NCBI GenBank assembly: GCA_965117045.1
Contig: OZ220749.1
Coordinates: 2,309,817-2,373,816 of the forward strand
DNA length: 64,000 bases
From: a bacterium
GTDB lineage: Bacteria; JAAXHH01
Direction: 5' to 3'
The position numbers and the translations under genes are program-made. The first letter of the stretch is position 1, and every line of letters begins with the position of its first letter. The notes under the pieces were generated by a model. That model had not been told where the DNA came from. It ran no database searches and worked only from the letters and a program-made list of their open reading frames with translations. Shown piece after piece: positions 13,782 to 29,087 of this stretch.

Positions 13782-13853
13782 GATGCTGAACGGGCGACCG
13801 TTGATCTCAAGAAGATCCAGACTACGCCGCCCGTGCGTAACCAGCACGGCCCG

Positions 13854-14093
13854 TCATGCGGAAGGAAGCGGATTTTTCCATGCGTACCAGACTTTATCCT
13901 GATATCCGTTCTTCAGTCTGATCTCGACTTCAATACCGAGAACCTCGATCTCTTCATCGGTTAACAGGTCCAGTATTTTGCTTTTCAGTATTTCGGCCTT
14001 TCGAGGGTCAATAAGCCGGCCTTGTTCATCAACCATAAGTAGACTCCTTTCAGCCCCGCCATAGTTGGAATATGATGGACATTCACGCCGCAA
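13854..14093 (-). CDS. Small hypothetical protein (60-79 aa) at island edge
   Basis: ORF with lower GC than its flanks; no recognisable motif. Start is uncertain (an internal Met gives MVDEQG...). Confidence 0.2.
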   Translation of the reverse strand: MRRECPSYSNYGGAERSLLMVDEQGRLIDPRKAEILKSKILDLLTDEEIEVLGIEVEIRLKNGYQDKVWYAWKNPLPSA

Positions 14094-14452
14094 GATCGAC
14101 GGCGCGATACTGCGGAAACTTGCATCTTCTATAGAAAAGAGTCGTTGAGAAACCAGGTTATCTCGTGTTTTATCTTTCGGCAGCCGGATAACCTGGGAAT
14201 CTATTGAACTGGTCCATCGGCTTCATCATTCGGCTCCACAGGTTCTGGCTTGATCCATTCATATCCAGCGAGGGGATTGTGCTAGCGGCGTAAATCGAGC
14301 TTTCTACTTGATTCTTCTTGTCGGTCCTTGCCGCAAAATTTCTTTACGTTTTGCATTTAATCTTTACTTTATGTGTTTTTCTTGGTATCTATTCTAAAGT
14401 AAAGTGAGTGATCTGAATTTCTGCCAATCGATCTACATCATCGGAGCGTATC

Positions 14453-14689
14453 GTGCCCAAAGTCAGTTCCAAGCGACAGATCACGCTTCCGGCCGATCAG
14501 TGCCGATTGGTCGGCATCGAGCCAGGCGACGAGTGCCAAAGCTACGTTGCCGACGGCCGCATTACCATTGTCCGCCAAGAGCCCGGCAGCGCCTGGGGAT
14601 GCCTGTCGCGTCTCGAAGCCGATCCGACGGTTTCAGACGAAGAGTCGCGCCAGGACGCGATTGAAGGGAAGCGGGACCAATTACCGTGA
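14453..14689 (+). CDS. AbrB/MazE/SpoVT-family antitoxin (VapB-like)
   Basis: N-terminal KRQITLPADQCRLVGIEPGDE swapped-hairpin motif. 4-nt GTGA overlap with the downstream PIN gene. Confidence 0.6.
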   Translation: MPKVSSKRQITLPADQCRLVGIEPGDECQSYVADGRITIVRQEPGSAWGCLSRLEADPTVSDEESRQDAIEGKRDQLP

Positions 14690-15087
14690 ACGCAATCGAC
14701 ACCAATGTCCTGCTGCGCTATCTCCTGAGAGACGACGAGGCGCAGGCTGAACGGGTGCGTCGCGTGTTTGAAGGCGGCGAGCGCGTGCTCATTACGGACG
14801 TGGTATTGGCGGAGACGGTGTGGACGTTAGCCGGCCGCCGCTATTGCGCGACCCGTACCGACCTGGTCGATCTGGTCAATAACCTGCTGCAGGATGCCAG
14901 CGTGCGCTTTGAGGATGACGAGGTCGTCTGGAGCGCTCTGCAGGCCTATCGGAGGACTGAAGGGGACTTCGCCGACGCCCTTATTGTGTGCAAAGCCGAA
15001 AAGCTGGCTGCCGAGGGCGACGAGTTGAGCACTGTTTATACCTTCGATGATGTCGCCTTGCAGTTGCCGGGTACTGCGAAGCCGTAG
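14686..15087 (+). CDS. vapC: PIN-domain toxin VapC
   Basis: AIDTNVLLRYLL places the N-terminal Asp in IDTN. It pairs with the upstream antitoxin, and its GTG start overlaps the TGA stop. Confidence 0.7.
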   Translation: MNAIDTNVLLRYLLRDDEAQAERVRRVFEGGERVLITDVVLAETVWTLAGRRYCATRTDLVDLVNNLLQDASVRFEDDEVVWSALQAYRRTEGDFADALIVCKAEKLAAEGDELSTVYTFDDVALQLPGTAKP

Positions 15088-15313
15088 TGTGGGGAGACGT
15101 AACGGTGCCAGGGAAGCATGCCGGTATCACTGTGGGCAGAGGGTTGATTATGTTTATGAGTTGAATGTGGCGTTGGTGGCGTTTGATTCGGACCGATTGT
15201 GTGATTCCCATGGATTTAACGTAATCCGCACCTGTGGCATTTACTTGCACGTAGTGAGCGTATGAACGTTATTTGGTTGGAGACGAACGCCAAACTTTGC
15301 CGAAGGGGCATTC

Positions 15314-15562
15314 ATGAGCAAGGGACTTGTCAGAACAGTGATCAACCTGGAAGACAAGCAGAAGGCATGGCTGGACCAGCAGGCCGCACTGCGACGTGTC
15401 TCCAGGGCCTCGTTGATTCGCCAGGCAGTCAGCGAATATCAGGCTAAGGAAAGGCGGGGCTCGGATGTTTCATTGCAAGAGGCACTCGAACAGACGGCGG
15501 GCATCTGGCAGTCAGGCGACGGCCTCGAGTACCAGGTGCGTATCCGCAAGGAATGGCTTTGA
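15314..15562 (+). CDS. Ribbon-helix-helix (CopG-like) antitoxin
   Basis: RRVSRASLIRQAVSEY is typical RHH. It lies 4 nt upstream of a PIN gene. Confidence 0.6.
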   Translation: MSKGLVRTVINLEDKQKAWLDQQAALRRVSRASLIRQAVSEYQAKERRGSDVSLQEALEQTAGIWQSGDGLEYQVRIRKEWL

Positions 15563-15565
15563 GTC

Positions 15566-15943
15566 ATGGCGAGATACCTGCTGGACTCGGTTATCGTCAT
15601 CGACCACTTCAACGGCGTTGATGCAGCGACGGAGTTCCTGACCGATCACGGTCGAGATTGCGTGATTTCCGTCATTACCCGCGCGGAGACTTTGGCTGGA
15701 TTCCCACCCGAATCTGAACCGTTGGCCCGTGAGCTTCTGGATCAGTTTGCGGCACTACCCGTTACCACCGAAGTCGCCGATGCCGCCGCAAGGTTGAGAC
15801 ACAACCACGGCATGAAACTACCGGATGCAATACAAGCGGCCATAGCAATGCAGGAAGGACTGTCCCTGGTCACTCGAAACACCAGAGACTTCAAGGCTGA
15901 CGGTCCGGTCGATGTGAAGATCCCCTATCGATTACCCCGATAA
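15566..15943 (+). CDS. vapC: PIN-domain toxin VapC
   Basis: LLDSVIVIDHF carries the N-terminal acidic residue. The ORF is about 125 aa and adjacent to an RHH antitoxin. Confidence 0.7.
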   Translation: MARYLLDSVIVIDHFNGVDAATEFLTDHGRDCVISVITRAETLAGFPPESEPLARELLDQFAALPVTTEVADAAARLRHNHGMKLPDAIQAAIAMQEGLSLVTRNTRDFKADGPVDVKIPYRLPR

Positions 15944-16232
15944 ACCCGCAAGGCAGATTGATTTCTCGAGGACGCCTACGCCATCGTCTCCGATGTATGG
16001 GTTCTACGAATGTTCGATGATGTAGAAACCTTTGACTTTTGCTTGGCGAGGCTACCAATCGCGAAATTGCCTTTGAAGTCGCTTACACTTCACCTACATA
16101 ACTATGAAAACCGCAAGTAATGGATTTTGTAGTTTCGTTTGGCCGTGAAACAGTCATGAGCTTGCCTGCAATTGCGGATCACATTCATAGTTCCCTATGG
16201 CGGTATTCTGCTAATTGCATTTGGACTAGGTA

Positions 16233-17309
16233 ATGATGAAAAACAACGTGTCACCATACAGAAAACCCCATGTAATCGTACCAAAAAACGAGGGCAAGGC
16301 TTGTGACGCCGTAATCAAGACAATGGAAAGACGTACCAGAGCGAAACGATCTGATATCCGTTTACCAGAGAGGGATAGAGTTGGAGTTCCAGTGGAACTA
16401 CGTCTAAAGTTGGGCGAACAGGAATACGCGATCGAACACACCATAATCGAACCATTCGAGAACAATATCCAAACCGAGCTAACAGTAGATGAGATTAGAA
16501 GGTACTTGGTTAGATCTCTCGAAGGTCGGTTGCTAAGTCCCATGTACTACGTGCTTCAAGTGCCAAAGGATGTTTGTTTACCGAAAAGGAAAAATAATCG
16601 AGTTAGGGCATTGAAGTTCCTTGCCGAATGGGTCCTAAGCAGTGCGGAGGTTATGTACGAAAGGATCACTGGATATTCATTGCCCATCGACTGCTATAAC
16701 ATCCCGTTCAGCCCTTACTGTTTTCCCGAAGATAGCGTCAAAGACGAACACTCGTGTTTAAACTGCACTGTCGAATTGCTGAGATGGCGGAACGGGACTG
16801 TGATAGGAAGAAAACCTGGCTTTGTTCAAACGGTACTTGACTATCCCAAAGACTTGGAGGGTTTTCGAACAGAACGGATACGTCGAGCTTTCTCAGACAA
16901 GTTTCCAAAGTTGGCGAAGTGTGGTGCTGAAGGAGCGCGAACAGTCTTGATACTGGAAAGCCGGGACGTAGCTCACACGAGATTCGATCTCATCGGGGCT
17001 CAGCTGCCAACCTTGCTGTCTGAGCACGCTTGCGTTCCTGACGAGATATTCTTGGTTGAACCATATGATTCACTCTGGTTTGTGTATCCGATGAAATACG
17101 ACAAGGGTCATTGGCCGGAAGAGGGGATGCCGCAGTGGGACAAAGGGCCGATTTATCATCCGGATAATCTGCCGACTGCTGGGATACCCAAAAGGTACCG
17201 TGATGCATTACAGTTGGACGAAATCTACGAGCCCTACCTGACTCGTGAGTGGATACCTGCCACCTACAAGCCGGAAGAATTGGAAGACCTTACGAATGCT
17301 AGTCTATAG
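16233..17309 (+). CDS. Hypothetical protein (358 aa), first gene of candidate two-gene defence module
   Basis: Low-GC ORF with no family recognised. Co-oriented with the 722-aa gene and 185 nt upstream of it. Confidence 0.5.
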   Translation: MMKNNVSPYRKPHVIVPKNEGKACDAVIKTMERRTRAKRSDIRLPERDRVGVPVELRLKLGEQEYAIEHTIIEPFENNIQTELTVDEIRRYLVRSLEGRLLSPMYYVLQVPKDVCLPKRKNNRVRALKFLAEWVLSSAEVMYERITGYSLPIDCYNIPFSPYCFPEDSVKDEHSCLNCTVELLRWRNGTVIGRKPGFVQTVLDYPKDLEGFRTERIRRAFSDKFPKLAKCGAEGARTVLILESRDVAHTRFDLIGAQLPTLLSEHACVPDEIFLVEPYDSLWFVYPMKYDKGHWPEEGMPQWDKGPIYHPDNLPTAGIPKRYRDALQLDEIYEPYLTREWIPATYKPEELEDLTNASL

Positions 17310-17494
17310 AGTCACTGTATGGTGAAGTTATCCCGATTTTGTAGATGGTATAGAGTTGGAATTCAGGACGACAATGAAGTAAGATCAGTACTGGATAATT
17401 ACAAGTTAATATCCTACAATGTGGAAGATGTATTGGAACAAAATGGTAGGTTCTTTTCGTTTGCCTTCGCAATAGTGTAAGTCAGGGAAATACA

Positions 17495-19663
17495 ATGAAT
17501 AATGAAAACGAACCAGAAGTTCGATCTGAACCTGAAATAGTTGCCGATTTAGAGAGTTTGAGCCAAGAACGGGGGTACATCTATTCCTTCTGTCGAATGG
17601 TTGATGAATACCTGTGGATGAAACCGAATGATCCCGAAATCCCTGATTGGCACAGCCAATTAAACCTACGTGAGCTGACTTTTTTATTGGGATTAATGGT
17701 CAAGTATCAATTGACTGTAACTGATCCTCCAACTAAATGGGAGTCTGACCTACATATCAACAAGACCAATGAGTTGTTTCATGAACTTCATCAAAATCAT
17801 GCATTTCCGAAAACTGAAGAAGTAAACGCCGCCCAAGTGAACTTAGAAGACTGGGAATCGGGGTTGAAAAACACCTATACCGATTGGATCAAAAGCGGTA
17901 AAGGTATCGTCGAGCCGGTTTTCTACGGGGAAGAAGGTGCATATGATTTTCAATTCCTAAAAATGGCTGCATGGAGATACAGATTTGATAATCAGTGGAT
18001 AAAGTCAAAAATAGGCATAGATGTTAATTCTATGACTGATATCGCAGGCAAAATAAAACAATTCACCGAACACCGGATCAATGATGTAACAAGGCCGTCA
18101 GACTTCAGGGAATCATGCCTTCGGTTATTGTCAGTCTTCTTAATCAAGCCGAATAATGTTCCTGGTGCTAACAGGGAGGAAATCGAAGTCTTTCTTGAAA
18201 CCTTTTCTGTTGAACCAGGGGATGGAGTTAATCAGAACCTTGACACGATTGGTAAATACAACACGGCGGACTCACACCCCATTATTAAGATCAGTAATGA
18301 CCTTTATTTCATTCCCATCTACTACAACCTAGCAAAATCCATCTACGAAAACCCTTTCTACTGGATTCTCAAAGACAACGATTACAAACAAACGGGGCTT
18401 AAGAACAGGGGTGATGTCACAGAGGAAATAGCATTCGAACTGTTACGAGGAGTATTTGGTATAGACAACGTTTTTCGAGGGGTAAAAGTACAACGTGGTA
18501 ACAGAGATATAACGGATATCGACGTTCTTGCAGTCTGTGGGAGTAAAGCTGTCATTGTTCAGGTTAAATCTAAGAAACTCACCGAGTTATCGAGGAGGGG
18601 TGACAGGAAGAGCATAGAGAAGGATTTCAAACATGCTGTTCAGGATGCTTACAACCAAGCGTTATTATCGAGAAACTACCTGCTCGAGACAGATGAAACT
18701 TTGACTGTTAATGAAGAAAGGGTTATTCAGGTCAAAGAGAACATCGATGATGCCTACATAATCTGTGCAACTGGTGATCATTATCCTGCAATTAACATTC
18801 AGACAAAGTCATACCTCAAAAAGAAGGCAACCGACCCTTACCCAGTCGTACAAAGTGTTTTTGACCTTGAAACTATATCGTTTTACCTCAGAGACCCTTA
18901 CGATTTCATTTACTACGCTCGTCAACGCACTATACATGCGAGTCACTTCGAGGCTGAATCAGAAATGGCCTTTCTTGGTTTTCATCTAAACCAAAAACTT
19001 TTTCCTACAGATGGATATGATGTCACTGTTATCTCAAGATACTACGCACATCTCATCGACCTTAGTTTTCCAGTTCTAAAAGGTGAGCATCCTTTTTCAG
19101 ATTCTGCATTCAAGGTTTTCCACAAGTGGAAAAACGACGATTTTGATGTACTAGTGAATGAAGTTAAAGTTAGGAGTATTGGTCATCCACAACTGACAGA
19201 TTTGATTTTCTTTTTGTTCGATCTAGCAGGATCTGTAGCTGACAAGATTTTCACAGTCTTCGGCGAAATAAAACGAACAACTCGTCATGACCTTCAGCCT
19301 CACGATGCTACTATTCCAATTAGTCATGTTAAGAAAGGTGTGACACTATTTAGTTACCCTTCCACACATGTACTTAGTGAGCCAATGATCCAAGAACAGT
19401 TTCGAGGCTTTGCAGTTGCTAGGAAATACAAATGCAAGGCTAGTGAATGGTTAGCGCTTGGATCATGTGCACAAAGTTCAAATCTGATTGACTGTCTCTG
19501 GTATAGTAAAGAAGAATGGTGTTATGATGAGAACTTAGAGCGTTTATCAAAAATTCTATTAAAACAAGGGCGGGCAATTCGTACTGACGGACGGAAAATA
19601 GGTAGGAACTCACCTTGCCCATGTGGCAGTGGATTGAAATTCAAAAAGTGCCACGGGAAATAG
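17495..19663 (+). CDS. NERD-like PD-(D/E/Q)xK nuclease-domain protein with C-terminal SEC-C zinc-binding motif (722 aa)
   Basis: Central DITDIDVLAVCGSKAVIVQVKSKK fits the NERD/PD-(D/E)xK pattern (D...D...QxK). The extreme C-terminus CPCGSGLKFKKCHGK is a canonical SEC-C motif. GGGAAA lies upstream of the ATG. Confidence 0.6.
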   Translation: MNNENEPEVRSEPEIVADLESLSQERGYIYSFCRMVDEYLWMKPNDPEIPDWHSQLNLRELTFLLGLMVKYQLTVTDPPTKWESDLHINKTNELFHELHQNHAFPKTEEVNAAQVNLEDWESGLKNTYTDWIKSGKGIVEPVFYGEEGAYDFQFLKMAAWRYRFDNQWIKSKIGIDVNSMTDIAGKIKQFTEHRINDVTRPSDFRESCLRLLSVFLIKPNNVPGANREEIEVFLETFSVEPGDGVNQNLDTIGKYNTADSHPIIKISNDLYFIPIYYNLAKSIYENPFYWILKDNDYKQTGLKNRGDVTEEIAFELLRGVFGIDNVFRGVKVQRGNRDITDIDVLAVCGSKAVIVQVKSKKLTELSRRGDRKSIEKDFKHAVQDAYNQALLSRNYLLETDETLTVNEERVIQVKENIDDAYIICATGDHYPAINIQTKSYLKKKATDPYPVVQSVFDLETISFYLRDPYDFIYYARQRTIHASHFEAESEMAFLGFHLNQKLFPTDGYDVTVISRYYAHLIDLSFPVLKGEHPFSDSAFKVFHKWKNDDFDVLVNEVKVRSIGHPQLTDLIFFLFDLAGSVADKIFTVFGEIKRTTRHDLQPHDATIPISHVKKGVTLFSYPSTHVLSEPMIQEQFRGFAVARKYKCKASEWLALGSCAQSSNLIDCLWYSKEEWCYDENLERLSKILLKQGRAIRTDGRKIGRNSPCPCGSGLKFKKCHGK

Positions 19664-19782
19664 CATCTGATCCCAAAATTCGTTTTGCGGATCCGCCACC
19701 TTCCGATGTAACTCCCAACACTTTCCTCTGTCTGTCACTGGCTTATACCTTCCTTACATTTCAAAAAACCTGCATCCTTTCA

Positions 19783-20520
19783 TCAGCTTGACGACAGAAT
19801 CACACTAGCCCTCGATAGAAGAGATGAAATGAAGTTGTTGAACGTAAGCTCCTCAGCTGGTTCGCTATAATCACCTTTCGTCCCAGTTATCCGATCCGAC
19901 AACAGAAAACATGCACCGTCATACAGTCGTTCACGTAAGAGCTTTGTTAACAGAATTTCATACCGCTCAGCGTAGGAGGCGTTTCTAAACTCGGGAAATA
20001 CTGAAAAGTGCGGTTGATGAACCTTAACGGGACTGGTCGATTTTACGGCATGTTCTAACAGCATCAGATAACCAAGCCAAGGACGTGTTGAAGGCTTGAA
20101 CGCTCCCTCTCGATATGCTGCCCAAAAATCAGTTGCATTGCCGATTGCTTCTTCTGTGCGATTGTTGAAGTTGTTTCCGAAAGATGGCCCCACCTGAGAT
20201 TTCAATTCCACCCCAGCTACAAGTATACCATCCGCGACTATTAGCAAGTCCCATTTTTTTTCAGCTCGATACCACCCGGGCAGTACCATCTTCTTCTGGT
20301 GATATATCATGGTATTCGAGATTCCAATTCTATTGAGAGCTTCCTTTATAACTTCAGCAAACCCATGTAATTGAGCTCCTCCGGTGACAGCGGCTCGTGC
20401 CCCAGTATCACGGACACCAGAGAAGGTACCCTGTGCCTGAGATTGGGAAGTTCGCGTATTCCAGAAATAACTGACAGCCCGTCGAATCTCGTCGTCAAAA
20501 TCTGCCGAATAGCTAGGCAT
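19783..20520 (-). CDS. Type II restriction endonuclease (PD-(D/E)xK), family unassigned
   Basis: DLLIVADGILVAGVELKSQ contains the PD...ExK core. The gene is 7 nt downstream of a DNA methyltransferase gene on the same strand. Confidence 0.5.
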   Translation of the reverse strand: MPSYSADFDDEIRRAVSYFWNTRTSQSQAQGTFSGVRDTGARAAVTGGAQLHGFAEVIKEALNRIGISNTMIYHQKKMVLPGWYRAEKKWDLLIVADGILVAGVELKSQVGPSFGNNFNNRTEEAIGNATDFWAAYREGAFKPSTRPWLGYLMLLEHAVKSTSPVKVHQPHFSVFPEFRNASYAERYEILLTKLLRERLYDGACFLLSDRITGTKGDYSEPAEELTFNNFISSLLSRASVILSSS

Positions 20521-20526
20521 TCAAGT

Positions 20527-21567
20527 TCACTCCAATATTCCATTTCGAATCAATGCTGAACCGAATAGGGATGAGGCCGACTGACAAAGGCGGTTGTACG
20601 CAAAGTCGAAGTAGTCAGAATCAATCTCAAAACCGATGCTATTTCTCCCCCATTTTGCAGCAGCAACTAACGTCGTACCCGTACCCATAAAAGGGTCCAA
20701 AACAGTATCGCCTACAAAACTAAACATCCGAATCAGTCGTTCAGAAACCTCAAGTGGGAACGGGGCTGGGTGGTTCCTTGTCGACGCGCCCGATATTCCC
20801 GTCCAAATCTGTTGAAACCACTTGTTATGATTTTCAACTGAAATCACACTTAGGACCCGGGCGCTAATACTTGGGGACCTGTAACCTCCTGGTTTTCGTT
20901 CCATAAGTACAAACTCAATATCGTTTTTTATGATTGCCCCAGGTTCATATGGTTTTCCGAGAAAACGAGACCCTCGTTCGACTTCGTAGGCGGCATTTGC
21001 TATTTTGTGCCAAATAATGGGAGCTAGATTGTCAAACCCTATATCGCGACAATGTTCTTGGATAGAGGAATGTAGAGGGATCACCGTGTGGCGCCCGTTG
21101 TTTTTACGACGAGAAACACATACATCACCAACAATACATACCAGTCGACCGCCAGGTACTAGCGCACGATAACATTGAGACCAGACCTTATCTAATTCCT
21201 TTAAAAACCTATTGTAACTGAGGAAATTACCAAGTTGGCCGTTGCGGACGGGATATTCCTTGAGATTCCAGTATGGTGGAGATGTTACAACGAGATGAAC
21301 ACTTTCCTTTTCAAGTGCAGACGCTAGACGGGCGTCACCCAGCCAAAGACTATGATTAGTAGGGATATTTTGTACAGCCTGCTCGATTTCTTTCGTATGC
21401 CGCGTGTTACTTGCGATACGTGGTATTTCTTTCTGAGGGTTTTTCAAATTACGTAGGGTACTTGGAACGTAAGGCGCAAGGTCTGCGGACAGAGTTGAAT
21501 TCTGTTCTTTTGAGGGATTTGGGGAGAAAGAAGTACACATTCTTAAGCTGGCCTTCGTCATAGTCAC
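20527..21567 (-). CDS. Beta-class N4-cytosine/N6-adenine DNA methyltransferase
   Basis: Motif IV VVTSPPYWN precedes motif I FMGTGTTLVAAAKWGRNSIGFEID. This circularly permuted order is the beta class, and SPPY suggests N4C. Confidence 0.85.
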   Translation of the reverse strand: MTMTKASLRMCTSFSPNPSKEQNSTLSADLAPYVPSTLRNLKNPQKEIPRIASNTRHTKEIEQAVQNIPTNHSLWLGDARLASALEKESVHLVVTSPPYWNLKEYPVRNGQLGNFLSYNRFLKELDKVWSQCYRALVPGGRLVCIVGDVCVSRRKNNGRHTVIPLHSSIQEHCRDIGFDNLAPIIWHKIANAAYEVERGSRFLGKPYEPGAIIKNDIEFVLMERKPGGYRSPSISARVLSVISVENHNKWFQQIWTGISGASTRNHPAPFPLEVSERLIRMFSFVGDTVLDPFMGTGTTLVAAAKWGRNSIGFEIDSDYFDFAYNRLCQSASSLFGSALIRNGILE

Positions 21568-21641
21568 TGATTTTTGCTATAGGATTTCAAGGCACTCACC
21601 ATACACAATTGAGATACGTTCAGTAGACTTCAGATACAAGT

Positions 21642-24600
21642 CTACTCATTTACAGAAAAGTCCATCGGACCTCTGTAGGTATAAGCAATTGAAGTTTCTC
21701 CACATACACGCGCTGTTAAAACGCCGTCAGGCTGACAACTTATTTTAGATTTTGACATACCGAGTGACTCAAAAGTGGGTGACAGAACCTCACATTGGCC
21801 ATTTCCCGCTATTCTCAGTCTTACGATATCGTCCAATCGAGGCGTAGTAGGTCCATGCCATATTACAGGGATTTCTCCAGAATGAACCGACCACAACAAC
21901 CTATCAGCAGGCACATGATGATTAACAAATTCCAACCAACGACTATGACTGTCGGTAGTCGGCCAGTTTTTGTCTTGGCTTAAAGTCAATACGTCAGGTG
22001 ATCTCAACCATTCTTGCAACTCGCGCGCATTGGTAAAATCAGCATCGGTGTCGGATACTGCCTTGATCGCGGCTAATCGGGACGTAAAGCCAGCCTGCAT
22101 CAATCGAGCTGCACATGGTTTAAGTGTACCTCTTTCCAAACAGGAACCTAAATCTCTTGTCTCTAACTCGTCTATATTATATGTGTCGTGCCCAACAGTT
22201 ATAGTATCCTCGTTGGCAACCGCACGAACTCGCACGGCATCAACAGCCCATGCTAGTTTGTAGACAACACCATTCTCGATGAATCGAAGTATATCATCAG
22301 TTTGGTTAACACTATAACAAGTGAGAGATTCTCCTAGTAGCCAAAGTCTTAATACATCACGCCAGTTGCTAAGATGAGGGTCAGGAACGAACGGTTCGAT
22401 CTCAAATAGCCGTTCTCCTAATTCTAGTATTGCGTCGACGGCTCGATCATTATCCTTATCAACAATAGCTGCATTCGCCACAATCAGTAATGGGTTAAGT
22501 TCTGTAGCAATTGCATCCATGTATTGACCGGATGCCAAACCTACTCCCGCCAGAAAGTAACCTCGTCGCTGTGCTTTACTGCTCTGCATCCAGATTGTAT
22601 TGGCGCGACCAACCAATGCAGCCTTCAAGAGTGTCTGATGACTTTCTTTTTTACGCGCTATCCGTTTTTGCCACAAAGAAGACGACAGTAACTGATCAAG
22701 GCGCATTGACAATTCTTCAACTGGGATATCTTCTTCACCAACTAGACTAAATATCGCGGTATCCAATACAGGTAGGTACTGATTCCACTGTGCGGCGTAT
22801 CGGTTTGTGGTTTTAGTACTCTCTCTTGGAACAACCGGAAAATCCCACGCCTCAGAGTTATTAAGTACGTAGTCGGTTAGTTCCTGTATATCTGGTTTTC
22901 CAAGAGCAACATGTAGTCGCTTCAAGAATATCATAAGAAGCTCAAATAACCCACTTTCGATATCGTGACCACCCTCTTTCGCTAGAAGCCCAGACCACTC
23001 TTGTCTGGATCGTGTGTGGTTTTTGAAAACTGGGTAAAGAATCAACCCTTCTACATCAACAAATGCTCTCCCTGCACGCCCGACTATGTTATGAAAGTCT
23101 GAAGCCTCAATTATCTTCCACCCACCATCCCTGAAATGGTGAATACTGTGCATTACAACTGCGGTCGCACTCAGGTTAAGTCCTTGTGCAAGAGTGGGGG
23201 AAGAAATCGTCACTTTAAGTGCGCCACTCCGTAGAAGGCGTTCCATTTCAATTCTAAAAGGTGTTGGTAACGCTCCATGGTGAATAGCGACACCGAGTTT
23301 TAGGCACCTAAGGATAGGATGATCACTACCAAGCCATTCCTGTCCAATACTCAAGACATCATCAAGTATGCACTCATCCACGTCAAGAGCGGATTCTATG
23401 AATCCCTTAGATTCAAGATCAATAATTGCATCTGCGTAGGGAGTAACGGAATTCCGTTGAGGACAGTAAATCAGAACCGACTGTTTATCTTCTAACAGAC
23501 GCCACGCTGTCGCGATGGCTAATTCTCTTTGGTCTCTTGGAAATGGTTCTGTCCGCCTTCCACGTAGTGGTTTTCTTTCCCTAAAGAACGTGGGCACGAA
23601 TGGTCGTTCTCCACCAACCCTTAGATCGAGGCGGGCCCGCCTGTCGCGCCAAATCACTTCACCGAAACGCTGCCGAGTAGGCCGCCAGTCGGACTTGAGC
23701 GCCACACCTTGATAACCTTTTCTTATCCAACTAGTAAAGTCATCGAGCTTGTTACCATCTGGTAGTATCGCTGACAGACAGATGATCCTTCGTTGAGTCG
23801 CGTCTTCCCTATTCAGTAGACGTTGAATCTGAATCTCATACCGAACCTCACGCTCACCGAGACCAATCATATGACCTTCGTCAAGTACAACAAGGCCCAC
23901 GTCATTGAGTATTGTAGGATCGTTTCGTAACGCAAAATCAAGTTTTTCAGGCGTTGCCACTACTATATCACGCTTAAGGAGAGTATCTTCTTCAAAGCCA
24001 CTCGTTCCCACACTCCCATATAGTCCGGAGACGGAGTATCCTAATGGGCCAAACGTGTTTTGAAGTGTGGACTCCGATTGTGCGGATAACGCGCGAAGCG
24101 GAGTTACAAAAACAACACGCTTACCGTCGCTCAGGCATCGAAGAATACATAGTTCTGCAATACGTGTTTTGCCGGCGCTTGTTGGGAGGGACACAACCAA
24201 GTTGTCTGAAGTATCAACAGCACGACGTGCTCCTTCGATCTGTGAAGGCCAAAGTTCGATTTCCGCTTTCGACCTACGACAGAGCAAAGCGATGAACATA
24301 CTGCGTGCCGCGAGCCATGAGGGGTTCTCACCATCAGGAAGGTCTTGGGGAAGCAGGTTATGAAAACTCGCCTGCCAAAGATCGTCAAATAGTTGGATAG
24401 CCAACCGAAAGCACCACCACTGCGGTACAAAATTCATTTCCGTAGCAACTCGCAATCCTGTCTGTAACTCTTCACGAGCCCTTGTCTCGAGTGCCTTCTC
24501 CCCTGTCTCAATAGCAAGAAGAAAGTAACATAGACCTGAATAAAACTGATCACAGAGCGCTAGATTCAGTGCGACAAGAACCGATTCCTCAAACTGATCG

Positions 24601-25163
24601 CTCGGTGCATCGGCACCAACAGTTGGTTCCTGAGAGGACAGGAACTCAACAAGTCTCTCATCCGAGGCTTCCCCTCTGGCTTTCCATTCGGTGATTTCGT
24701 CTTCAAGCTGATTAAAGTTCCTAAGAATAAGGAAAGATAAACCTCGTTCAATTTGCGACAGATTTGAACTGTGAATTGATTTTATCAGTAAAGAATACGC
24801 CCGGGCTGAAGAACGTCCAAGGTGGTAAGCAGCAGCGGCTAATATCCGTAGAAATCCACGTTGTGGATCGTCGGGGTCACCATTTGCCACGACCGCTTCG
24901 ATTGCCTCTCCAGACTGGATAAACGCACGGGACGCTAGCTGCTCATCACCGCCTTGTGTTCGGAGGTGAATGGCATGTAGCAAGAGTGCATCACCGTAAA
25001 CTATTAAATCATAAGACAGCATCTCCGTAAACGCTGGTGCGCCACGGGGTAGAACACCATCTCGCCAAATCAACGATCGTGCTTGGCCTCGTGCCAGAAG
25101 TTGTGCACGAAAGGCGGGCTCGAGCGCTGAAGCAACTACACTCTCTAGTTGTTCAAGATTCAT
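21642..25163 (-). CDS. Large SF2 DExH (DEGH) helicase, HamB-like, 1173 aa
   Basis: Walker A TSAGKTRIAE, motif II VVLDEGHMIG and motif VI HNIVGRAGRAF. About 300 aa of helical N-terminus and about 450 aa of C-terminal extension. The start overlaps the upstream 257-aa ORF by 11 nt. Confidence 0.85.
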   Translation of the reverse strand: MNLEQLESVVASALEPAFRAQLLARGQARSLIWRDGVLPRGAPAFTEMLSYDLIVYGDALLLHAIHLRTQGGDEQLASRAFIQSGEAIEAVVANGDPDDPQRGFLRILAAAAYHLGRSSARAYSLLIKSIHSSNLSQIERGLSFLILRNFNQLEDEITEWKARGEASDERLVEFLSSQEPTVGADAPSDQFEESVLVALNLALCDQFYSGLCYFLLAIETGEKALETRAREELQTGLRVATEMNFVPQWWCFRLAIQLFDDLWQASFHNLLPQDLPDGENPSWLAARSMFIALLCRRSKAEIELWPSQIEGARRAVDTSDNLVVSLPTSAGKTRIAELCILRCLSDGKRVVFVTPLRALSAQSESTLQNTFGPLGYSVSGLYGSVGTSGFEEDTLLKRDIVVATPEKLDFALRNDPTILNDVGLVVLDEGHMIGLGEREVRYEIQIQRLLNREDATQRRIICLSAILPDGNKLDDFTSWIRKGYQGVALKSDWRPTRQRFGEVIWRDRRARLDLRVGGERPFVPTFFRERKPLRGRRTEPFPRDQRELAIATAWRLLEDKQSVLIYCPQRNSVTPYADAIIDLESKGFIESALDVDECILDDVLSIGQEWLGSDHPILRCLKLGVAIHHGALPTPFRIEMERLLRSGALKVTISSPTLAQGLNLSATAVVMHSIHHFRDGGWKIIEASDFHNIVGRAGRAFVDVEGLILYPVFKNHTRSRQEWSGLLAKEGGHDIESGLFELLMIFLKRLHVALGKPDIQELTDYVLNNSEAWDFPVVPRESTKTTNRYAAQWNQYLPVLDTAIFSLVGEEDIPVEELSMRLDQLLSSSLWQKRIARKKESHQTLLKAALVGRANTIWMQSSKAQRRGYFLAGVGLASGQYMDAIATELNPLLIVANAAIVDKDNDRAVDAILELGERLFEIEPFVPDPHLSNWRDVLRLWLLGESLTCYSVNQTDDILRFIENGVVYKLAWAVDAVRVRAVANEDTITVGHDTYNIDELETRDLGSCLERGTLKPCAARLMQAGFTSRLAAIKAVSDTDADFTNARELQEWLRSPDVLTLSQDKNWPTTDSHSRWLEFVNHHVPADRLLWSVHSGEIPVIWHGPTTPRLDDIVRLRIAGNGQCEVLSPTFESLGMSKSKISCQPDGVLTARVCGETSIAYTYRGPMDFSVNE

Positions 25164-25926
25164 GCACGTTCATTGCTTTCTTAAAGACATTCTCGATAAA
25201 CTTTTGGTGTTTTAGTACCTGCAGTCCTACTGCTCTCTGCATAATTGGTCCGTTATACTTCTTAAGATCTGTGGTTAAAAAGGATTCAGGTTCATTTCCA
25301 GTAAAAGTAAATAACAAGTGCTCAACGTGACTGTGCCTTATGTCCTTAACTAATTGAGCAACTGTTATCGCATCAGAAAGGACGGTGTCACCGAGTTCCA
25401 ATAGACGTTCAGCAACAAAGCTAAGCGCGTGACCGGAGGGTAAACCGTTGTCGCGGTCTAAACATTGTCGCGCTTCTGTAATTGTGCGCTTGTTCAGAAA
25501 TTTACGGCTTTTAGCTTCAGTTTTTAAGAACCGAAGTGGAGTGCCGTCACGTGGGTCTTTGATTCCAATTACATCATCGCCTCGCATAGGCATCTCGCGT
25601 GAATCCTTCCATCGCAGACGCTTTATGGGGACGACATAGTCGGTCTTTTCGCCAATATATTCGGTTGCAAGTATCTCCCCCAGATCTCCGGACCGGATTG
25701 GTTTTGAGTGAGGGAGTTTTTGTTGTAACAGATTCGCTACACCTTCCTTATCAAGCAATTTGAATACCTGCTGAAGACGCTGCTCACTGACGTAATGCTG
25801 CGGAAGAACAGCAGCTGTGCATCGACACCCCGCCTCGACGGAATTTTCGTCTGCTCTGAGTAGTTGTAACGCATGAGTGTTGATGTTCTTGTTCTGTTCA
25901 TGCGTCCAATCAGATAGGAATAGCAC
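25153..25926 (-). CDS. Small putative PD-(D/E)xK protein, HamA (DUF1837)-like
   Basis: GDDVIGIKD...RFLKTEAK fits D-x(19)-E-A-K. It is translationally coupled to the helicase. Assignment to DUF1837 is from memory of Hachiman architecture, not from a search. Confidence 0.4.
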   Translation of the reverse strand: MLFLSDWTHEQNKNINTHALQLLRADENSVEAGCRCTAAVLPQHYVSEQRLQQVFKLLDKEGVANLLQQKLPHSKPIRSGDLGEILATEYIGEKTDYVVPIKRLRWKDSREMPMRGDDVIGIKDPRDGTPLRFLKTEAKSRKFLNKRTITEARQCLDRDNGLPSGHALSFVAERLLELGDTVLSDAITVAQLVKDIRHSHVEHLLFTFTGNEPESFLTTDLKKYNGPIMQRAVGLQVLKHQKFIENVFKKAMNVHES

Positions 25927-26069
25927 CTAGCAAAAAACCTTGTAGCGCATTATTTTTCGTTTAGAGTTGAACAAAACCCTTCGGAAACGGATACCGACTT
26001 GGTATTTTGGGTTTCCAAGTAACAAATAAGGAATCTTCATTTCGGGCGATTGTACTATAAGCAAATCTA

Positions 26070-26855
26070 TCACCCCACCCCCACCTCAATCCCAATCGGA
26101 CAGTGGTCCGACCCCATGACGTCGGGCATGATCCATGCCTTCGAGACGGCGGGCATCAGGTCCTCGGTCACGTAGAAGTAATCGATCCGCCAGCCCACGT
26201 TCCTTTTTCTCGCTCCTGACATGAGGTGCCACCAGGTGTAGTTGTCCGGCCCTTCGTCGAATTGTCGGAAGGTATCCACGTAGCCCTGGTCGACGATCTT
26301 GTCGATCCAATCGCGTTCCATGGGGAGGAACCCGGAGATCTTCTCGTTGTCCTTGGGCCGGGCCAGGTCGACGGCCTTGTGGGCCGTATTCACGTCGCCG
26401 CAGATGACCAGCTTCTTGCCGTCCGCGCGCAGCGATTCCCAGTGGGCCAGGATGGCCTCGTAGAAATCCATCTTGTACTGCAGCCGCTGGGCGTTCTGCT
26501 TTCCATTCGGGAAGTACACGTTGAACAGGGTGAAATCCGGATACTCCAGCACCAGGGTCCGGCCTTCCGAATCGAACCGGTCCTCGCCGAATCCCTTCTC
26601 GACGCTGAGGGGTTCGTGGCGCGTGTAGACCCCTACACCGCTGTATCCTTTTTTCTCCGCTTCCGACCAGAAGCTCGTATATCTGTCGACCTCCGTGATC
26701 TTGGCATCCAGCTGCGACTCCTGGGACTTGGTTTCCTGGATACACAGGATGTCCGGCGCCTCCTCCTGAAGCCACTCGATGAATCCCTTCTTCGCCACCG
26801 CCCTTACGCCGTTCACGTTCCAGCTCAACAGTTTCCATGAAGACATGAAGATCAC
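26070..26855 (-). CDS. xth: Exodeoxyribonuclease III
   Basis: LLSWNVNGVRA, ILCIQETK and the C-terminal SDHCPI region are characteristic of the ExoIII/APE1 family. Confidence 0.85.
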   Translation of the reverse strand: MIFMSSWKLLSWNVNGVRAVAKKGFIEWLQEEAPDILCIQETKSQESQLDAKITEVDRYTSFWSEAEKKGYSGVGVYTRHEPLSVEKGFGEDRFDSEGRTLVLEYPDFTLFNVYFPNGKQNAQRLQYKMDFYEAILAHWESLRADGKKLVICGDVNTAHKAVDLARPKDNEKISGFLPMERDWIDKIVDQGYVDTFRQFDEGPDNYTWWHLMSGARKRNVGWRIDYFYVTEDLMPAVSKAWIMPDVMGSDHCPIGIEVGVG

Positions 26856-26873: not shown

Positions 26874-29087
26874 TTATTGGTTTGAAGTGTTCTGGTCGTT
26901 CCCGATTACAAACTCCACGCTCACAATACCAGTCCGCTCGATCCGGTCACCCCTCGCACGGTGACTTCGAATGGGGAAATCGTCCACCTTCACGTGCTCC
27001 CGAGTCTCCTCTCCGGCCTCGGTATCTGCGTCTTGATCACCCGCGTCACGCTTGACGATCAGCACGATCTCCGGATCGGCCTCCGGCGTGAAGGCCAGGA
27101 GCGAGGAGTCGCCCGGCACGAGTTCGTAGAGCTGGTTGATCCGGCAGCGGTCCATGGTGCAGCGCTTGATGCAGGCGTAGCCTTCGAGATCGCGGTAGGC
27201 GACGGTGAAGACCTGTCCCGGTTCCTCCATGGCGCAGTACAGGATATCGAGGTCGACGTACATTTTGTCAAGGGTATTGTGGACGCCCGCGACCCCCCCG
27301 GAGCGCACGATCACGACGCGGTCGTAGAGGGAGACGTTGAAGAGGGGCCGGCCGCGCTCGATGGTGTAGCCCATGTACCCCGATTCGGTGTCGTAGCGGA
27401 GCACCAGATCGCGAGCTGCGGCGTCCCGTTCCTGCACCGGCGTGAAGGGCTTGACCTCCGAGCGGCGGGGGTGTTCGTCGCGGTAGCTTCGGATGAGCTG
27501 TTCCAGGAATCCGATGGCGAAATCCGTCAGGTGATGCAGGTTGTGGAGCACCGTCCTGAGCTGGCCTTCGATCTCCCGCATCTCGGCTTCGGCCCGGTCG
27601 ATGCCGTACCGCGTGATACGGTAGATCGGGATATCGAGGAGCCGGTCCAGGTCCTCCTTCGTCAGGCTGTCGGCCGTGATGATGTCTTCCACGGCGGCCA
27701 TGCGCCGCGTCGCGGTGAGCTCGTGGCGGATCGCCGCCAGCAGCGACCGCACCAGGCGGCGGTGCGCCTCCGGTCCATGGCCGACCGCGTCCAGGTTCCG
27801 GGCGATCATCTCCCGGCTCGGTCCGTAATGTTCGAAATCCAGGCTGCGGTACACGGTCGTCAGCAGGCTGCGGGCCGCGTCGCGGATCTCCGGCGGCGCC
27901 TCGTTGAGTTCGATCATGCCCCGGTCCACGGCGCGGGCCGTGGTCGATACGGGGCTGTACCGGGCGATAGCCTCGCGCACGGCGGTATATACACCCTCGA
28001 TGTCCTCGACGTCCTCGATTTCCTTGTATATACGGTTTTCGATGAAGACCTGCTCGAGCCTCCGGGCCCGGAGTTGGGCGCGCAGGTCACGCTCCTTGAT
28101 CTTCAGTTCGGCTTCGAGGATCTCGAGCAGCCGGTTCGTGCTGTGCCGGATCATGTCCGACACGGTCATCACGCGGGGATGGCCGTCGCTGATGACCAGC
28201 AGGTTGGCGGAGATGGCGACCTCGCAGGACGTGAAGGCGTACAGGCCGCGCAGGATGTCATCAATCTCCGCGTCAGGGTTCGTGCGGATCTCGATCTCCA
28301 CGTCGCCGGTGGTGTAGTCGGTCAGGCCCCGCACGGCAATGCGCTTCGACCGGGCGGCCTCCTCGATCGATTTCATCAGGCTTTCCGTCGTTTCGCCAAA
28401 GGGCAGCGCGCGGACCATGACCAGGCCTTCCTCGCGGGGCTCCAGCCGCGCGCGGGTATATACGCGCCCGTTTCCGTCCTCGTATTCGCTCACGTCCATG
28501 AGCCCGCCGGTGGCGAAGTCGGGGTACAGCTGGAAGGGCTCGCCCTTGAGGCAGGACACCTGGGCCTCCATGACCTCGATGGGGTTGTGGGGCAGGATGC
28601 GGGTGGACATGCCCACGGCGATGCCTTCGGCGCCGAGGATGAGCGCCACCGGCACCTTGGCCGGAAAGACCACCGGTTCGCGGGCACGCCCGTCGTAGGA
28701 GTCCACGTACTCCGTGATTTCCGGGCTGAGCAGCACTTCCCGGGCGAGGGGCGTGAGCCGGCATTCGATGTAGCGCGCGGCCGAGGCCTGGCCGCCCGTG
28801 AGCACCGATCCGAAATTGCCCTGCTTGTCGATGAACAGGTCCTTGTTGGCGAGCGAGACCAGGGCGCCGAAGATGGACTGGTCGCCGTGGGGATGGAACC
28901 GCATGGTCTGGCCGACGACGTTGGCCACCTTGTGGTACTTGCCGTCGTCGATCTCGAAGAGGGTGTGGAGGATGCGGCGCTGAACGGGTTTCAGGCCGTC
29001 GTCGATTTCCGGAATCGCCCGGTTCTTGACGACGTAGGTGGCGTATTCGAGGAAGTAGCGGTCGTATAGGGTTTCGACGTCGGCCAA
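26874..29087 (-). CDS. Type IIA topoisomerase subunit A (ParC/GyrA-like, 737 aa)
   Basis: LKPVQRRIL...HPHGD...AARYIECRL carries the catalytic Tyr. At 737 aa the length is closer to ParC than to GyrA. Confidence 0.8.
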   Translation of the reverse strand: MADVETLYDRYFLEYATYVVKNRAIPEIDDGLKPVQRRILHTLFEIDDGKYHKVANVVGQTMRFHPHGDQSIFGALVSLANKDLFIDKQGNFGSVLTGGQASAARYIECRLTPLAREVLLSPEITEYVDSYDGRAREPVVFPAKVPVALILGAEGIAVGMSTRILPHNPIEVMEAQVSCLKGEPFQLYPDFATGGLMDVSEYEDGNGRVYTRARLEPREEGLVMVRALPFGETTESLMKSIEEAARSKRIAVRGLTDYTTGDVEIEIRTNPDAEIDDILRGLYAFTSCEVAISANLLVISDGHPRVMTVSDMIRHSTNRLLEILEAELKIKERDLRAQLRARRLEQVFIENRIYKEIEDVEDIEGVYTAVREAIARYSPVSTTARAVDRGMIELNEAPPEIRDAARSLLTTVYRSLDFEHYGPSREMIARNLDAVGHGPEAHRRLVRSLLAAIRHELTATRRMAAVEDIITADSLTKEDLDRLLDIPIYRITRYGIDRAEAEMREIEGQLRTVLHNLHHLTDFAIGFLEQLIRSYRDEHPRRSEVKPFTPVQERDAAARDLVLRYDTESGYMGYTIERGRPLFNVSLYDRVVIVRSGGVAGVHNTLDKMYVDLDILYCAMEEPGQVFTVAYRDLEGYACIKRCTMDRCRINQLYELVPGDSSLLAFTPEADPEIVLIVKRDAGDQDADTEAGEETREHVKVDDFPIRSHRARGDRIERTGIVSVEFVIGNDQNTSNQ

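What the first reader, a model, noticed from the sequence alone, without database searches (positions are those of the whole stretch)
19783..21567. Type II restriction-modification pair possibly co-transcribed with the helicase module
A beta-class MTase (motif IV SPPY before motif I FMGTG) is followed 7 nt later by a 245-aa PD-ExK endonuclease. Only 75 nt separate the helicase stop from the MTase start, all on the minus strand. Four defence genes may therefore form one operon linking Hachiman-like and restriction-modification functions.
Basis: partly seen in the sequence, partly recalled or inferred. Interest (0 to 1): 0.5.

Follow-up and report, generated by a model that had tools for sequence, protein, structure and literature searches.

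The report
XhoI-type restriction-modification pair beside Hachiman
This is an ordinary two-gene restriction-modification system that in this bacterial lineage sits just downstream of a separate two-gene Hachiman anti-phage system, inside a variable defence-gene hot spot. The two are neighbours by recombination and do not form a conserved four-gene machine.

Summary

There are three corrections:
- The M-R gap is 6 nt, not 7.
- The methyltransferase most likely starts at ATG 21540 (337 aa).
- The gap after hamB is therefore 101 nt (74 nt from the GTG start).

The idea of one operon linking the two functions is only partly supported.
- **Transcription:** no terminator or promoter is detectable in the gap, so read-through is possible. 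The promoter scan is uninformative for this Gemmatimonadota host.
- **Same chromosomal site in relatives:** of 14 contigs including the window, M-R occurs without Hachiman in 4, with it in 2, and neither occurs in 8.
- **HamB relatives elsewhere:** 0 of 80 HamB-subfamily loci carry an XhoI-type nuclease. The closest HamB relatives are bare hamAB pairs flanked by IS elements.
- **Separate histories:** the hamAB cassette has recombined independently of the M-R body, with a breakpoint inside the first ~12 methyltransferase codons.

Verdict: two autonomous known systems sit next to each other in a defence hot spot. These are new members of known kinds and the interest is low.

The parts
19783..20520 (-). 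Type IIP restriction endonuclease of the XhoI/PaeR7I family, 245 aa. Putative catalytic residues are D91, E105 and K107.
20521..20533 (-). M-R junction. GGAG (20530-20533) sits immediately before the M stop codon TGA (20527-20529), followed by a 6-nt gap (20521-20526) to the R ATG. This is a likely ribosome-binding site and translational coupling point.
   Evidence: Read directly from the sequence. GGAG (GGGG in L007) and the spacing are conserved in all six strains. The function is inferred.
20527..21540 (-). Beta-class amino DNA methyltransferase, 337 aa from ATG 21540. The ORF stays open up to GTG 21567. SPPY is at residues 87-90 and FMGTG at 284-288.
   Evidence: Pfam N6_N4_Mtase at 137 bits. 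PDB 2zie (T. thermophilus TTHA0409) at 343 bits. The start is set by alignment to orthologues and by the exact 337-aa public gene call. Residues from 20 onward are conserved in the 73%-identical L003 enzyme.
21511..21540 (-). Cassette-specific 5' end of the methyltransferase gene (first ~10 codons). It differs between cassette types and travels with the upstream cassette.
   Evidence: The N-termini are MCTSFSPNPSKEQ (window, L005), MESSYFNISDNEL (L001, L002, L006) and MLRNQDEGELINKEL (L007). blastn homology to the Hachiman-free loci stops at 21506-21510. Identity over the first 33 nt is 82% to L005 but 21-48% to the others.
21541..21641 (-). hamB-M spacer, 101 nt and 39.6% GC. It has no counterpart in the Hachiman-free relatives.
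   Evidence: No sigma-70-like promoter or intrinsic terminator hit. The fold is not better than shuffles, z -0.23. There are 9 of 101 differences to L005, the same divergence as in the genes.
21623..21645 (-). Hairpin GTAGACTT-N7-AAGTCTAC overlapping the hamB stop codon. It has no U-tract and is probably not a terminator.
   Evidence: Sequence and predicted fold. It is not called by the terminator scan. L005 has an uncompensated change in the stem (AAGTATAC).
21642..25163 (-). HamB, the Hachiman SF2 sensor helicase, 1173 aa. Motifs: GKT331, DEGH428, GRAGR695.
   Evidence: PADLOC HamB1 PDLC00174 at 1563 bits over the full length. Pfam DEAD, ResIII and Helicase_C. Motifs.
25153..25926 (-). HamA, the Hachiman effector nuclease (DUF1837), 257 aa. 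It overlaps hamB by 11 nt.
   Evidence: PADLOC HamA1 at 322 bits and Pfam HamA at 43 bits. D118, E137 and K139 are invariant in 16 homologues.
25927..26069 (-). AT-rich (37% GC) region upstream of hamA, forming the 5' edge of the hamAB cassette. Homology to the Hachiman-free relatives resumes exactly at the xthA stop codon (26070).
   Evidence: No sigma-70 hit. A TAGATTTG motif lies at 26062-26069; its significance is unknown.
26070..26855 (-). xthA-like exonuclease III gene. It is the conserved chromosomal anchor on one side of the variable slot.
   Evidence: Pfam Exo_endo_phos at 111 bits. It is 86-91% identical and syntenic in all related contigs.

Best explanation
Two autonomous, already-known defence modules lie head to tail in a hypervariable hot spot just downstream of xthA, in an uncultured Gemmatimonadota chromosome.

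Module 1 is a classical M-then-R Type IIP restriction-modification pair.
- The beta-class methyltransferase protects host DNA. Its SPPY motif suggests N4-methylcytosine; this is inferred.
- The XhoI/PaeR7I-family PD-(D/E)XK nuclease cuts unmethylated incoming DNA. The recognition site is possibly CTCGAG-like; this is also inferred.
- R is probably translationally coupled to M through a conserved GGAG and a 6-nt gap.

Module 2 is a type I Hachiman (HamA nuclease plus HamB helicase). According to published work it senses damaged DNA and triggers abortive infection.

How they came together. In the window's lineage, a 4.5-kb hamAB cassette replaced whatever lay between xthA and M. The cassette brought its own upstream region, a 101-nt trailing spacer, and the start codon plus first ~10 codons of M.

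Consequence for expression. M-R has lost the ~300-nt upstream region it has in Hachiman-free relatives. It must now be expressed from sequence supplied by the cassette. The most likely route is at least partial read-through from the hamAB transcript, since no terminator is detectable (my estimate about 0.55). A promoter in the spacer or the 3' end of hamB may contribute.

What is shown and what is inferred. Shown: gene identities, fold, motifs, synteny variation and mosaic recombination. Inferred: methylation type, recognition site, transcription pattern and translational coupling. I read the adjacency as a by-product of cassette shuffling in a defence island, not a mechanistic link.
For: Identities.

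Same-site survey (checked by tblastn): HamAB plus M-R in 2 contigs (window, L005), M-R alone in 4 (L001, L002, L006, L007), neither in 8 (L090-L097).

Breakpoints: homology to the Hachiman-free relatives runs from 19777 to 21510 and resumes at 26064-26070. The junction lies inside the first ~12 M codons.

HamAB autonomy: HamA is adjacent in 79 of 80 HamB-subfamily loci, none has an XhoI nuclease, and 1 of 80 has a weak distant MTase hit. 68 of the 80 have at least 2 kb downstream of hamB. The closest HamB relatives (66%) are flanked by IS66 and IS3 transposases and have no M-R.

Independent histories: window and L005 share hamAB (dS 0.18, 92-97% identity). L005's M body is 95-97% identical to Hachiman-free L001 but only 84-93% to the window; dS is 0.17 against 0.44.

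R-M autonomy: the same nuclease family forms stand-alone M-R pairs on 111 plasmids, 98 of them mobilizable. M and R are under purifying selection with or without Hachiman, dN/dS 0.08-0.30.

Published mechanism: Hachiman is a self-sufficient HamAB complex (PMC12278908).
Against: - All four genes share a strand, the gap is short (74-101 nt), and no terminator is found. A single transcript is therefore possible.
- The cassette supplies M's start codon and 5' region in both contigs that carry it. M-R expression in this lineage therefore depends physically on cassette sequence.
- In this sample hamAB was never seen at this site without M-R, though only two contigs carry it.
- A native Hachiman plus type II RM island in S. 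thermophilus protected far better than plasmid-borne Hachiman alone (PMC12322248). Combined benefit is plausible.
- No transcription or methylation data exist for this uncultured organism.
Confidence: 0.8

Rival explanations
1. One reading: hamA-hamB-M-R is a genuine four-gene operon in which the two systems are functionally coupled. For example, double-strand breaks made by R on phage DNA could be resected into the 3' ssDNA that activates HamAB, giving a layered restriction and abortive-infection unit.
For: The genes share a strand, the gap is 74-101 nt, and no terminator-like site lies in it. The cassette provides M's 5' end. Hachiman is activated by nicked or damaged DNA and 3' overhangs (PMC12278908). 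A Hachiman plus type II RM island gave strong protection in S. thermophilus (PMC12322248). Fused Hachiman operons with extra genes exist, such as Pez-Ham (PMC13064477).
Against: The arrangement is restricted to one lineage. M-R occurs alone at the same site in 4 contigs. None of 80 HamB-subfamily loci has an XhoI nuclease. The closest HamB relatives lack M-R. hamAB and the M-R body recombine independently. Both systems are known to work alone.
Confidence: 0.1
2. M-R is transcribed independently from its own promoter, located in the 101-nt AT-rich spacer or the 3' end of hamB. In that case the four genes form two transcription units despite their proximity.
For: The spacer has the lowest GC of the block bar the region upstream of hamA (39.6%). 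Type II R-M pairs normally carry their own promoters; this is general knowledge of R-M regulation. In L002 a terminator-like hairpin separates the upstream gene from M, so M-R is probably on its own transcript there. Three sigma-70-like sites lie inside hamB at 23319-23422, though there are fewer hits overall than in shuffles.
Against: No sigma-70-like site lies in the spacer. The weak TTGAAA and TATAGC hexamers are both mutated in L005. The spacer is no better conserved than the coding sequence. The scan is uninformative for this host in any case.
Confidence: 0.35
3. The R-M pair is decaying or is a solitary methyltransferase with an inactive nuclease. The locus would then no longer restrict.
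For: CTCGAG is not depleted in the window, 28 observed against 22.5 +/- 5.2 expected.
Against: Both ORFs are full length in six strains with dN/dS 0.08-0.30. The catalytic D, E and K are invariant. The M-R junction is conserved. Lack of site avoidance is uninformative when the recognition site is unknown and the host methylates it.
Confidence: 0.05

Closest known systems
PaeR7I / XhoI Type IIP restriction-modification systems (Pfam PF04555; NCBI name 'PaeR7I family type II restriction endonuclease')
   Same: The nuclease is about 245 aa and scores far above the family threshold. It has D-X13-E-X-K and the same M-then-R order with a gap of a few nt. It behaves as a stand-alone two-gene module and is often mobile.
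   Different: It is only 44-49% identical to the plasmid PaeR7I-family enzymes. Its partner is a 337-aa beta-class N6_N4 MTase with SPPY, whereas those plasmids carry an Eco57I-like MTase of about 550 aa. The methylated base may therefore differ. The recognition sequence is untested.
TTHA0409, putative DNA methylase of Thermus thermophilus HB8 (PDB 2zie/2zif/2zig), a dimeric beta-class MTase
   Same: It is the best solved relative of the methyltransferase, at 343 bits over residues 72-330 of the 346-aa ORF form. It is listed among the dimeric beta-class MTases (PMC7544214, PMC10406627).
   Different: Relative to the Thermus protein, the window enzyme has an N-terminal extension about 40 residues longer, and its first ~12 codons are cassette-specific. 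The specificity of TTHA0409 is not given in the papers I could read.
Type I Hachiman (HamA DUF1837 nuclease plus HamB SF2 helicase), e.g. ECOR31 HamAB
   Same: Full-length PADLOC HamA1 and HamB1 matches, overlapping genes, and intact D-ExK and helicase motifs. Published mechanism: HamB senses damaged DNA and releases HamA, leading to abortive infection (PMC12278908).
   Different: The nearest relatives outside its own 90% cluster are at most 70% identical. It is followed by an R-M pair, which 0 of 80 subfamily loci show.
Native 7.2-kb 'Hachiman + type II RM' island of Streptococcus thermophilus (PMC12322248), and the fused Pez-Ham operon (PMC13064477)
   Same: These are precedents for Hachiman sitting beside a type II R-M in a small island, and for extra genes sharing a promoter with hamAB.
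   Different: The host phylum and Hachiman subtype differ. That island was treated as two systems, and no operon fusion with R-M was reported. In Pez-Ham the extra genes lie upstream and regulate hamAB. Here the R-M lies downstream.

Membership tests
XhoI/PaeR7I-family Type II restriction endonuclease | Sequence match to the family profile above the curated threshold | tested here: met
   Pfam PF04555 at 256 bits against a cut-off of 25, covering profile positions 5-191 of 191. PADLOC REase_II at 285 bits. tblastn hits are annotated as PaeR7I family REase.
XhoI/PaeR7I-family Type II restriction endonuclease | PD-(D/E)XK catalytic core: conserved acidic and lysine residues, and a restriction-endonuclease-like fold | tested here: met
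XhoI/PaeR7I-family Type II restriction endonuclease | Adjacent cognate methyltransferase | tested here: met
   The MTase ends 6 nt upstream. The pairing is conserved in L001-L003 and L005-L007.
XhoI/PaeR7I-family Type II restriction endonuclease | Site-specific cleavage (CTCGAG for XhoI and PaeR7I), blocked by the cognate methylation | not testable with these tools
   No REBASE and no biochemistry available. The CTCGAG count of 28 against 22.5 expected is uninformative.
Beta-class amino (N6A/N4C) DNA methyltransferase | Motif IV ((D/S)PPY) N-terminal to motif I (FxGxG), and membership of Pfam N6_N4_Mtase | tested here: met
   SPPY at residues 87-90 and FMGTG at 284-288 of the 337-aa form. PF01555 at 137 bits. 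343 bits to the beta-class TTHA0409.
Beta-class amino (N6A/N4C) DNA methyltransferase | Identity of the modified base (m4C or m6A) | not testable with these tools
   SPPY is the motif of N4C enzymes, whereas CcrM has DPPY (PMC10406627). This suggests m4C, by inference only.
Hachiman (type I) | HamA (DUF1837 nuclease with D-ExK) immediately upstream of HamB (SF2 helicase with Walker A and DExH) | tested here: met
   PADLOC HamA1 at 322 bits and HamB1 at 1563 bits. The genes overlap by 11 nt. D118/E137/K139, GKT331 and DEGH428 are present.
Hachiman (type I) | Anti-phage activity | not testable with these tools
Single four-gene defence operon (hamA-hamB-M-R) as a system | Gene order conserved across independent lineages | tested here: not met
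   0 of 80 HamB-subfamily loci have the nuclease. M-R occurs alone in 4 same-site contigs. The closest HamB relatives lack M-R.
Single four-gene defence operon (hamA-hamB-M-R) as a system | One transcript: no terminator or promoter between hamB and M | tested here: inconclusive
   No hit in the gap. The same scan also misses promoters expected upstream of hamA and upstream of M in L001 and L002. The hairpin lacks a U-tract.
Single four-gene defence operon (hamA-hamB-M-R) as a system | Shared evolutionary history of the four genes | tested here: not met
   L005 has window-like hamAB but an L001-like M body.

The most novel reading that the evidence does not exclude
In this Gemmatimonadota lineage the hamAB cassette has captured the R-M pair transcriptionally by supplying its promoter, 5' UTR and start codon. 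The fused unit then acts synergistically. R cuts unmethylated phage DNA, the resulting ends are processed to 3' ssDNA, and that DNA triggers HamB to release HamA. Restriction and abortive infection would then be wired in series within a single operon. A second, more modest novelty would be that the first ~12 codons of the methyltransferase act as a recurrent recombination junction for swapping upstream defence cassettes.
Probability: 0.1. Interest if true: 0.5.

Novelty: new member of a known kind. Interest (0 to 1): 0.2.

Why it matters
This matters mainly as a caution. Tight, co-oriented spacing of defence genes in an island does not make them one system, and population-level comparison of the same chromosomal slot settles the question quickly.

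Three points are of modest interest:
- The work documents a defence hot spot downstream of xthA in uncultured Gemmatimonadota, with at least six occupancy states.
- It shows an XhoI/PaeR7I-type nuclease paired with a beta-class, probably m4C, methyltransferase in place of the Eco57I-like partner seen on plasmids.
- It shows that cassette exchange can cut inside the 5' end of a methyltransferase gene. The incoming cassette must then supply expression signals for a gene whose loss would be lethal while R is active.

If transcriptional capture of an R-M by Hachiman proved real and synergistic, it would be a natural example of layered defence in one operon.

Tried and rejected
- **CTCGAG avoidance as a hint to specificity.** 28 sites against 22.5 +/- 5.2 expected, so it is uninformative.
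- **Sigma-70 promoter and intrinsic terminator scan of the gap.** Nothing was found. Control scans also find no promoter upstream of hamA or upstream of M in Hachiman-free loci. I do not treat the silence as evidence for an operon.
- **Hairpin at the hamB stop (21623-21645) as a terminator or regulatory element.** It has no U-tract, the region folds no better than shuffles (z -0.23), and L005 has an uncompensated stem change. Rejected as a conserved element.
- **Fold of the 3' region after R.** Not significant, z -0.32.
- **First genome-contig scan with HamB alone.** It found nothing. It worked only with an alignment.
- **A donor lineage already carrying hamAB-M-R, which would explain the breakpoint inside M.** Not supported by the closest HamB relatives. 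The 42-48% identity of the first 33 nt between cassette types is too weak to call homology.
- **Bacteroidota-type TAnnTTTG promoters and Shine-Dalgarno usage, to characterise the host.** Weak and inconclusive. The host was later identified as Gemmatimonadota.
- **Literature on XhoI/PaeR7I methylation.** The search returned only cloning papers.
Full report
**1. What is there**

The window contains a low-GC island (41-49% GC, about 16-26 kb) in a host of about 62% GC. Six genes run in one direction on the minus strand:

| Gene | Coordinates | Evidence |
|---|---|---|
| Topoisomerase IV subunit A-like | 26874-29087 | Pfam |
| xthA-like exonuclease | 26070-26855 | Pfam Exo_endo_phos |
| hamA | 25153-25926 | PADLOC HamA1, 322 bits |
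| hamB | 21642-25163 | PADLOC HamB1, 1563 bits, full length; overlaps hamA by 11 nt |
| Methyltransferase ORF | 20527-21567 | Pfam N6_N4_Mtase, 137 bits |
| Nuclease, 245 aa | 19783-20520 | Pfam XhoI PF04555, 256 bits; PADLOC REase_II, 285 bits |

Two genes converge on the nuclease from the plus strand. One encodes a 358-aa protein with no family hit. The other encodes a 722-aa NERD/SEC-C protein.

**2. Corrections to the observation**

- The gap between the M stop and the R ATG is 6 nt, not 7.
- The GTG start at 21567 leaves a 74-nt gap after hamB.
- The better-supported start is the ATG at 21540 (337 aa), which leaves 101 nt.

The ATG at 21540 aligns exactly with the ATG start of the orthologues in L001, L002 and L006. 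The 337-aa form is also the exact protein on record for the 3.83-Mb source contig. Residues from position 20 onward are conserved in a 73%-identical enzyme from an unrelated contig. The N-terminal extension is therefore coding, and the start must lie upstream of residue 20.

**3. The R-M pair**

*Nuclease.* It belongs to a very large family; at least 8000 homologues passed E 1e-5. D91, E105 and K107 are invariant in a 43-sequence alignment.

*Methyltransferase.* SPPY is at residues 87-90 and FMGTG at 284-288, which is the beta-class order. Its best solved relative is T. thermophilus TTHA0409 (2zie, 343 bits), a dimeric beta-class enzyme (PMC7544214, PMC10406627). SPPY is the motif IV of N4-cytosine enzymes, whereas CcrM has DPPY (PMC10406627). 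I therefore infer m4C, but this is not shown.

*Comparison with plasmids.* The same nuclease family (44-49% identity, annotated 'PaeR7I family') occurs on 111 plasmids. There it follows an Eco57I-like MTase of about 550 aa. The window's system keeps the M-then-R design with a different methyltransferase partner.

*Integrity.* Both genes are intact and under purifying selection in six strains, with dN/dS 0.08-0.30. A GGAG just before the M stop codon, followed by the 6-nt gap, is conserved. This suggests translational coupling, which is inferred.

**4. Hachiman**

HamA keeps D118, E137 and K139, invariant in 16 homologues. HamB has GKT331, DEGH428 and GRAGR695. Published work shows that HamAB is a self-contained nuclease-helicase complex. 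It is activated by damaged DNA (nicks, 3' ssDNA) and acts by abortive infection (PMC12278908).

**5. Is it one operon or one system?**

*Signals in the DNA.* No sigma-70-like promoter and no intrinsic terminator lies in 21541-21641. A hairpin overlaps the hamB stop codon (21623-21645). It has no U-tract, the region folds no better than shuffles (z -0.23), and the stem carries an uncompensated change in L005.

The promoter scan has no power here. It finds nothing upstream of hamA either. It also finds nothing upstream of M in Hachiman-free relatives, where M-R must be expressed somehow. The host is an uncultured Gemmatimonadota bacterium. Co-transcription is therefore neither shown nor excluded.

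*Comparative evidence.* This part is decisive for the question of functional linkage.

(a) Same chromosomal site (topoIV, xthA, then the slot) in related genomes (tblastn check):

| State of the slot | Contigs |
|---|---|
| hamAB plus M-R | 2 (window, L005) |
| M-R preceded by a different gene (280-290 aa, or 212 aa) | 4 (L001, L002, L006, L007) |
| Neither | 8 (L090-L097) |

(b) DNA homology between the window and the Hachiman-free relatives covers exactly 19777-21510. It resumes at the xthA stop, 26064-26070. The 4.5-kb block 21511-26069 is therefore a cassette.

(c) Among 80 HamB-subfamily loci from other species, 79 have HamA adjacent and none has an XhoI-type nuclease within 8 kb. One has a weak, distant MTase hit. 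68 of the 80 have at least 2 kb of sequence downstream of hamB.

(d) The closest HamB relatives (66%) are bare hamAB pairs flanked by IS66 and IS3 transposases.

(e) The two contigs that carry all four genes still do not share one history. Window and L005 hamAB differ by dS 0.18 (92-97% identity). L005's M body is 95-97% identical to Hachiman-free L001 and only 84-93% identical to the window's; dS is 0.17 against 0.44.

**6. A detail worth recording**

The junction common to all cassette types lies inside the methyltransferase gene, at about codon 11-13. The spacer, the start codon and the first ~10 codons differ by cassette type:
- MCTSFSPNPSKEQ in the window and L005
- MESSYFNISDNEL in L001, L002 and L006
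- MLRNQDEGELINKEL in L007

These segments travel with the upstream cassette. In the window the ~300-nt upstream region present in L001 and L002 is gone. M-R expression must therefore come from sequence delivered with hamAB. Losing M while R is active would be lethal, so any successful cassette swap must keep M expressed. That makes read-through from hamAB a reasonable expectation (my estimate about 0.55). It would be a consequence of the swap, not evidence of a functional partnership.

**7. Comparison with known systems, and novelty**

Both modules are members of well-known families. A Hachiman plus type II RM island has already been described and tested as two systems in S. thermophilus (PMC12322248). 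Hachiman operons fused to other genes are also known, such as Pez-Ham (PMC13064477).

New here are only the particular members and host, the beta-class methyltransferase partner of an XhoI/PaeR7I-type nuclease, and the hot-spot mosaic. I rate this as a new member of a known kind, with interest 0.2.

The most novel reading not excluded is transcriptional capture plus restriction-triggered Hachiman activation. I give it a probability of about 0.1.

Noticed in passing
window 16233-19663 (+ strand); L005 6489-9915: A two-gene pair converges on the nuclease: a 358-aa protein with no Pfam, NCBIfam or PADLOC hit, then a 722-aa protein with a NERD nuclease-related domain and a C-terminal SEC-C zinc motif. 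The pair is conserved and collinear in L005 (722 and 356 aa) and only partly present in L007. It may be an uncharacterised defence pair in the same island.
   Followed up: partly
window ~13760-26069; L001, L002, L005-L007, L090-L097: The slot between xthA and a conserved 148-150-aa gene (followed by CBM9, PhyH and asparaginase genes) is a hypervariable hot spot in this Gemmatimonadota clade. At least six occupancy states were seen: vapBC only; transposases; a type I HsdM-containing set; a HerA/DUF87 set; M-R with a 280-aa or 212-aa gene; and hamAB plus M-R. No tRNA or integrase lies in the window.
   Followed up: partly
window 21511-21540; L001/L002 8981-9013; L007 3970-4005: The first ~10-13 codons of the methyltransferase are cassette-specific, and the recombination junction lies inside the coding sequence in all three cassette types. 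Why the junction recurs at the same place is unexplained. It could be a recombination hot spot, or simply the limit of conserved sequence.
   Followed up: partly
L001 7808-8680; L002 7855-8709; L006 6032-6874: In Hachiman-free relatives the gene upstream of M encodes a low-GC (about 41%) protein of 280-290 aa, with faint Sel1-repeat similarity at its C-terminus and no other family hit. It occupies the position that hamAB holds in the window and could be another unknown defence gene.
   Followed up: no
window 14686-15087 and 15314-15943 (+ strand): Two VapBC-like toxin-antitoxin modules lie at the left edge of the island: a 133-aa PIN protein, and an RHH (82 aa) plus PIN (125 aa) pair. The RHH-PIN pair is the only content of the slot in the 'empty' relatives L095-L097.
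   Followed up: partly
L005 10745-16367: Beyond the shared island, L005 carries a 1073-aa ResIII helicase and an N6_N4 methyltransferase-domain protein of at least 1088 aa. The window lacks both. This is further evidence of module turnover at this locus.
   Followed up: no
L090 1609-7726: A related 3.85-Mb genome has a second insertion between the GH172 genes and the metallo-beta-lactamase-fold gene. It carries Dam-like and C5 DNA methylase genes plus a Vsr endonuclease, so there is another R-M hot spot a few kb away.
   Followed up: no
window 26062-26069 (- strand): TAGATTTG, a match to the Bacteroidota -7 promoter element TAnnTTTG, lies immediately after the xthA stop at the very edge of the hamAB cassette. 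Such motifs occur upstream of 3 of 46 genes against a 0.9% background. Its relevance in Gemmatimonadota is unknown.
   Followed up: no
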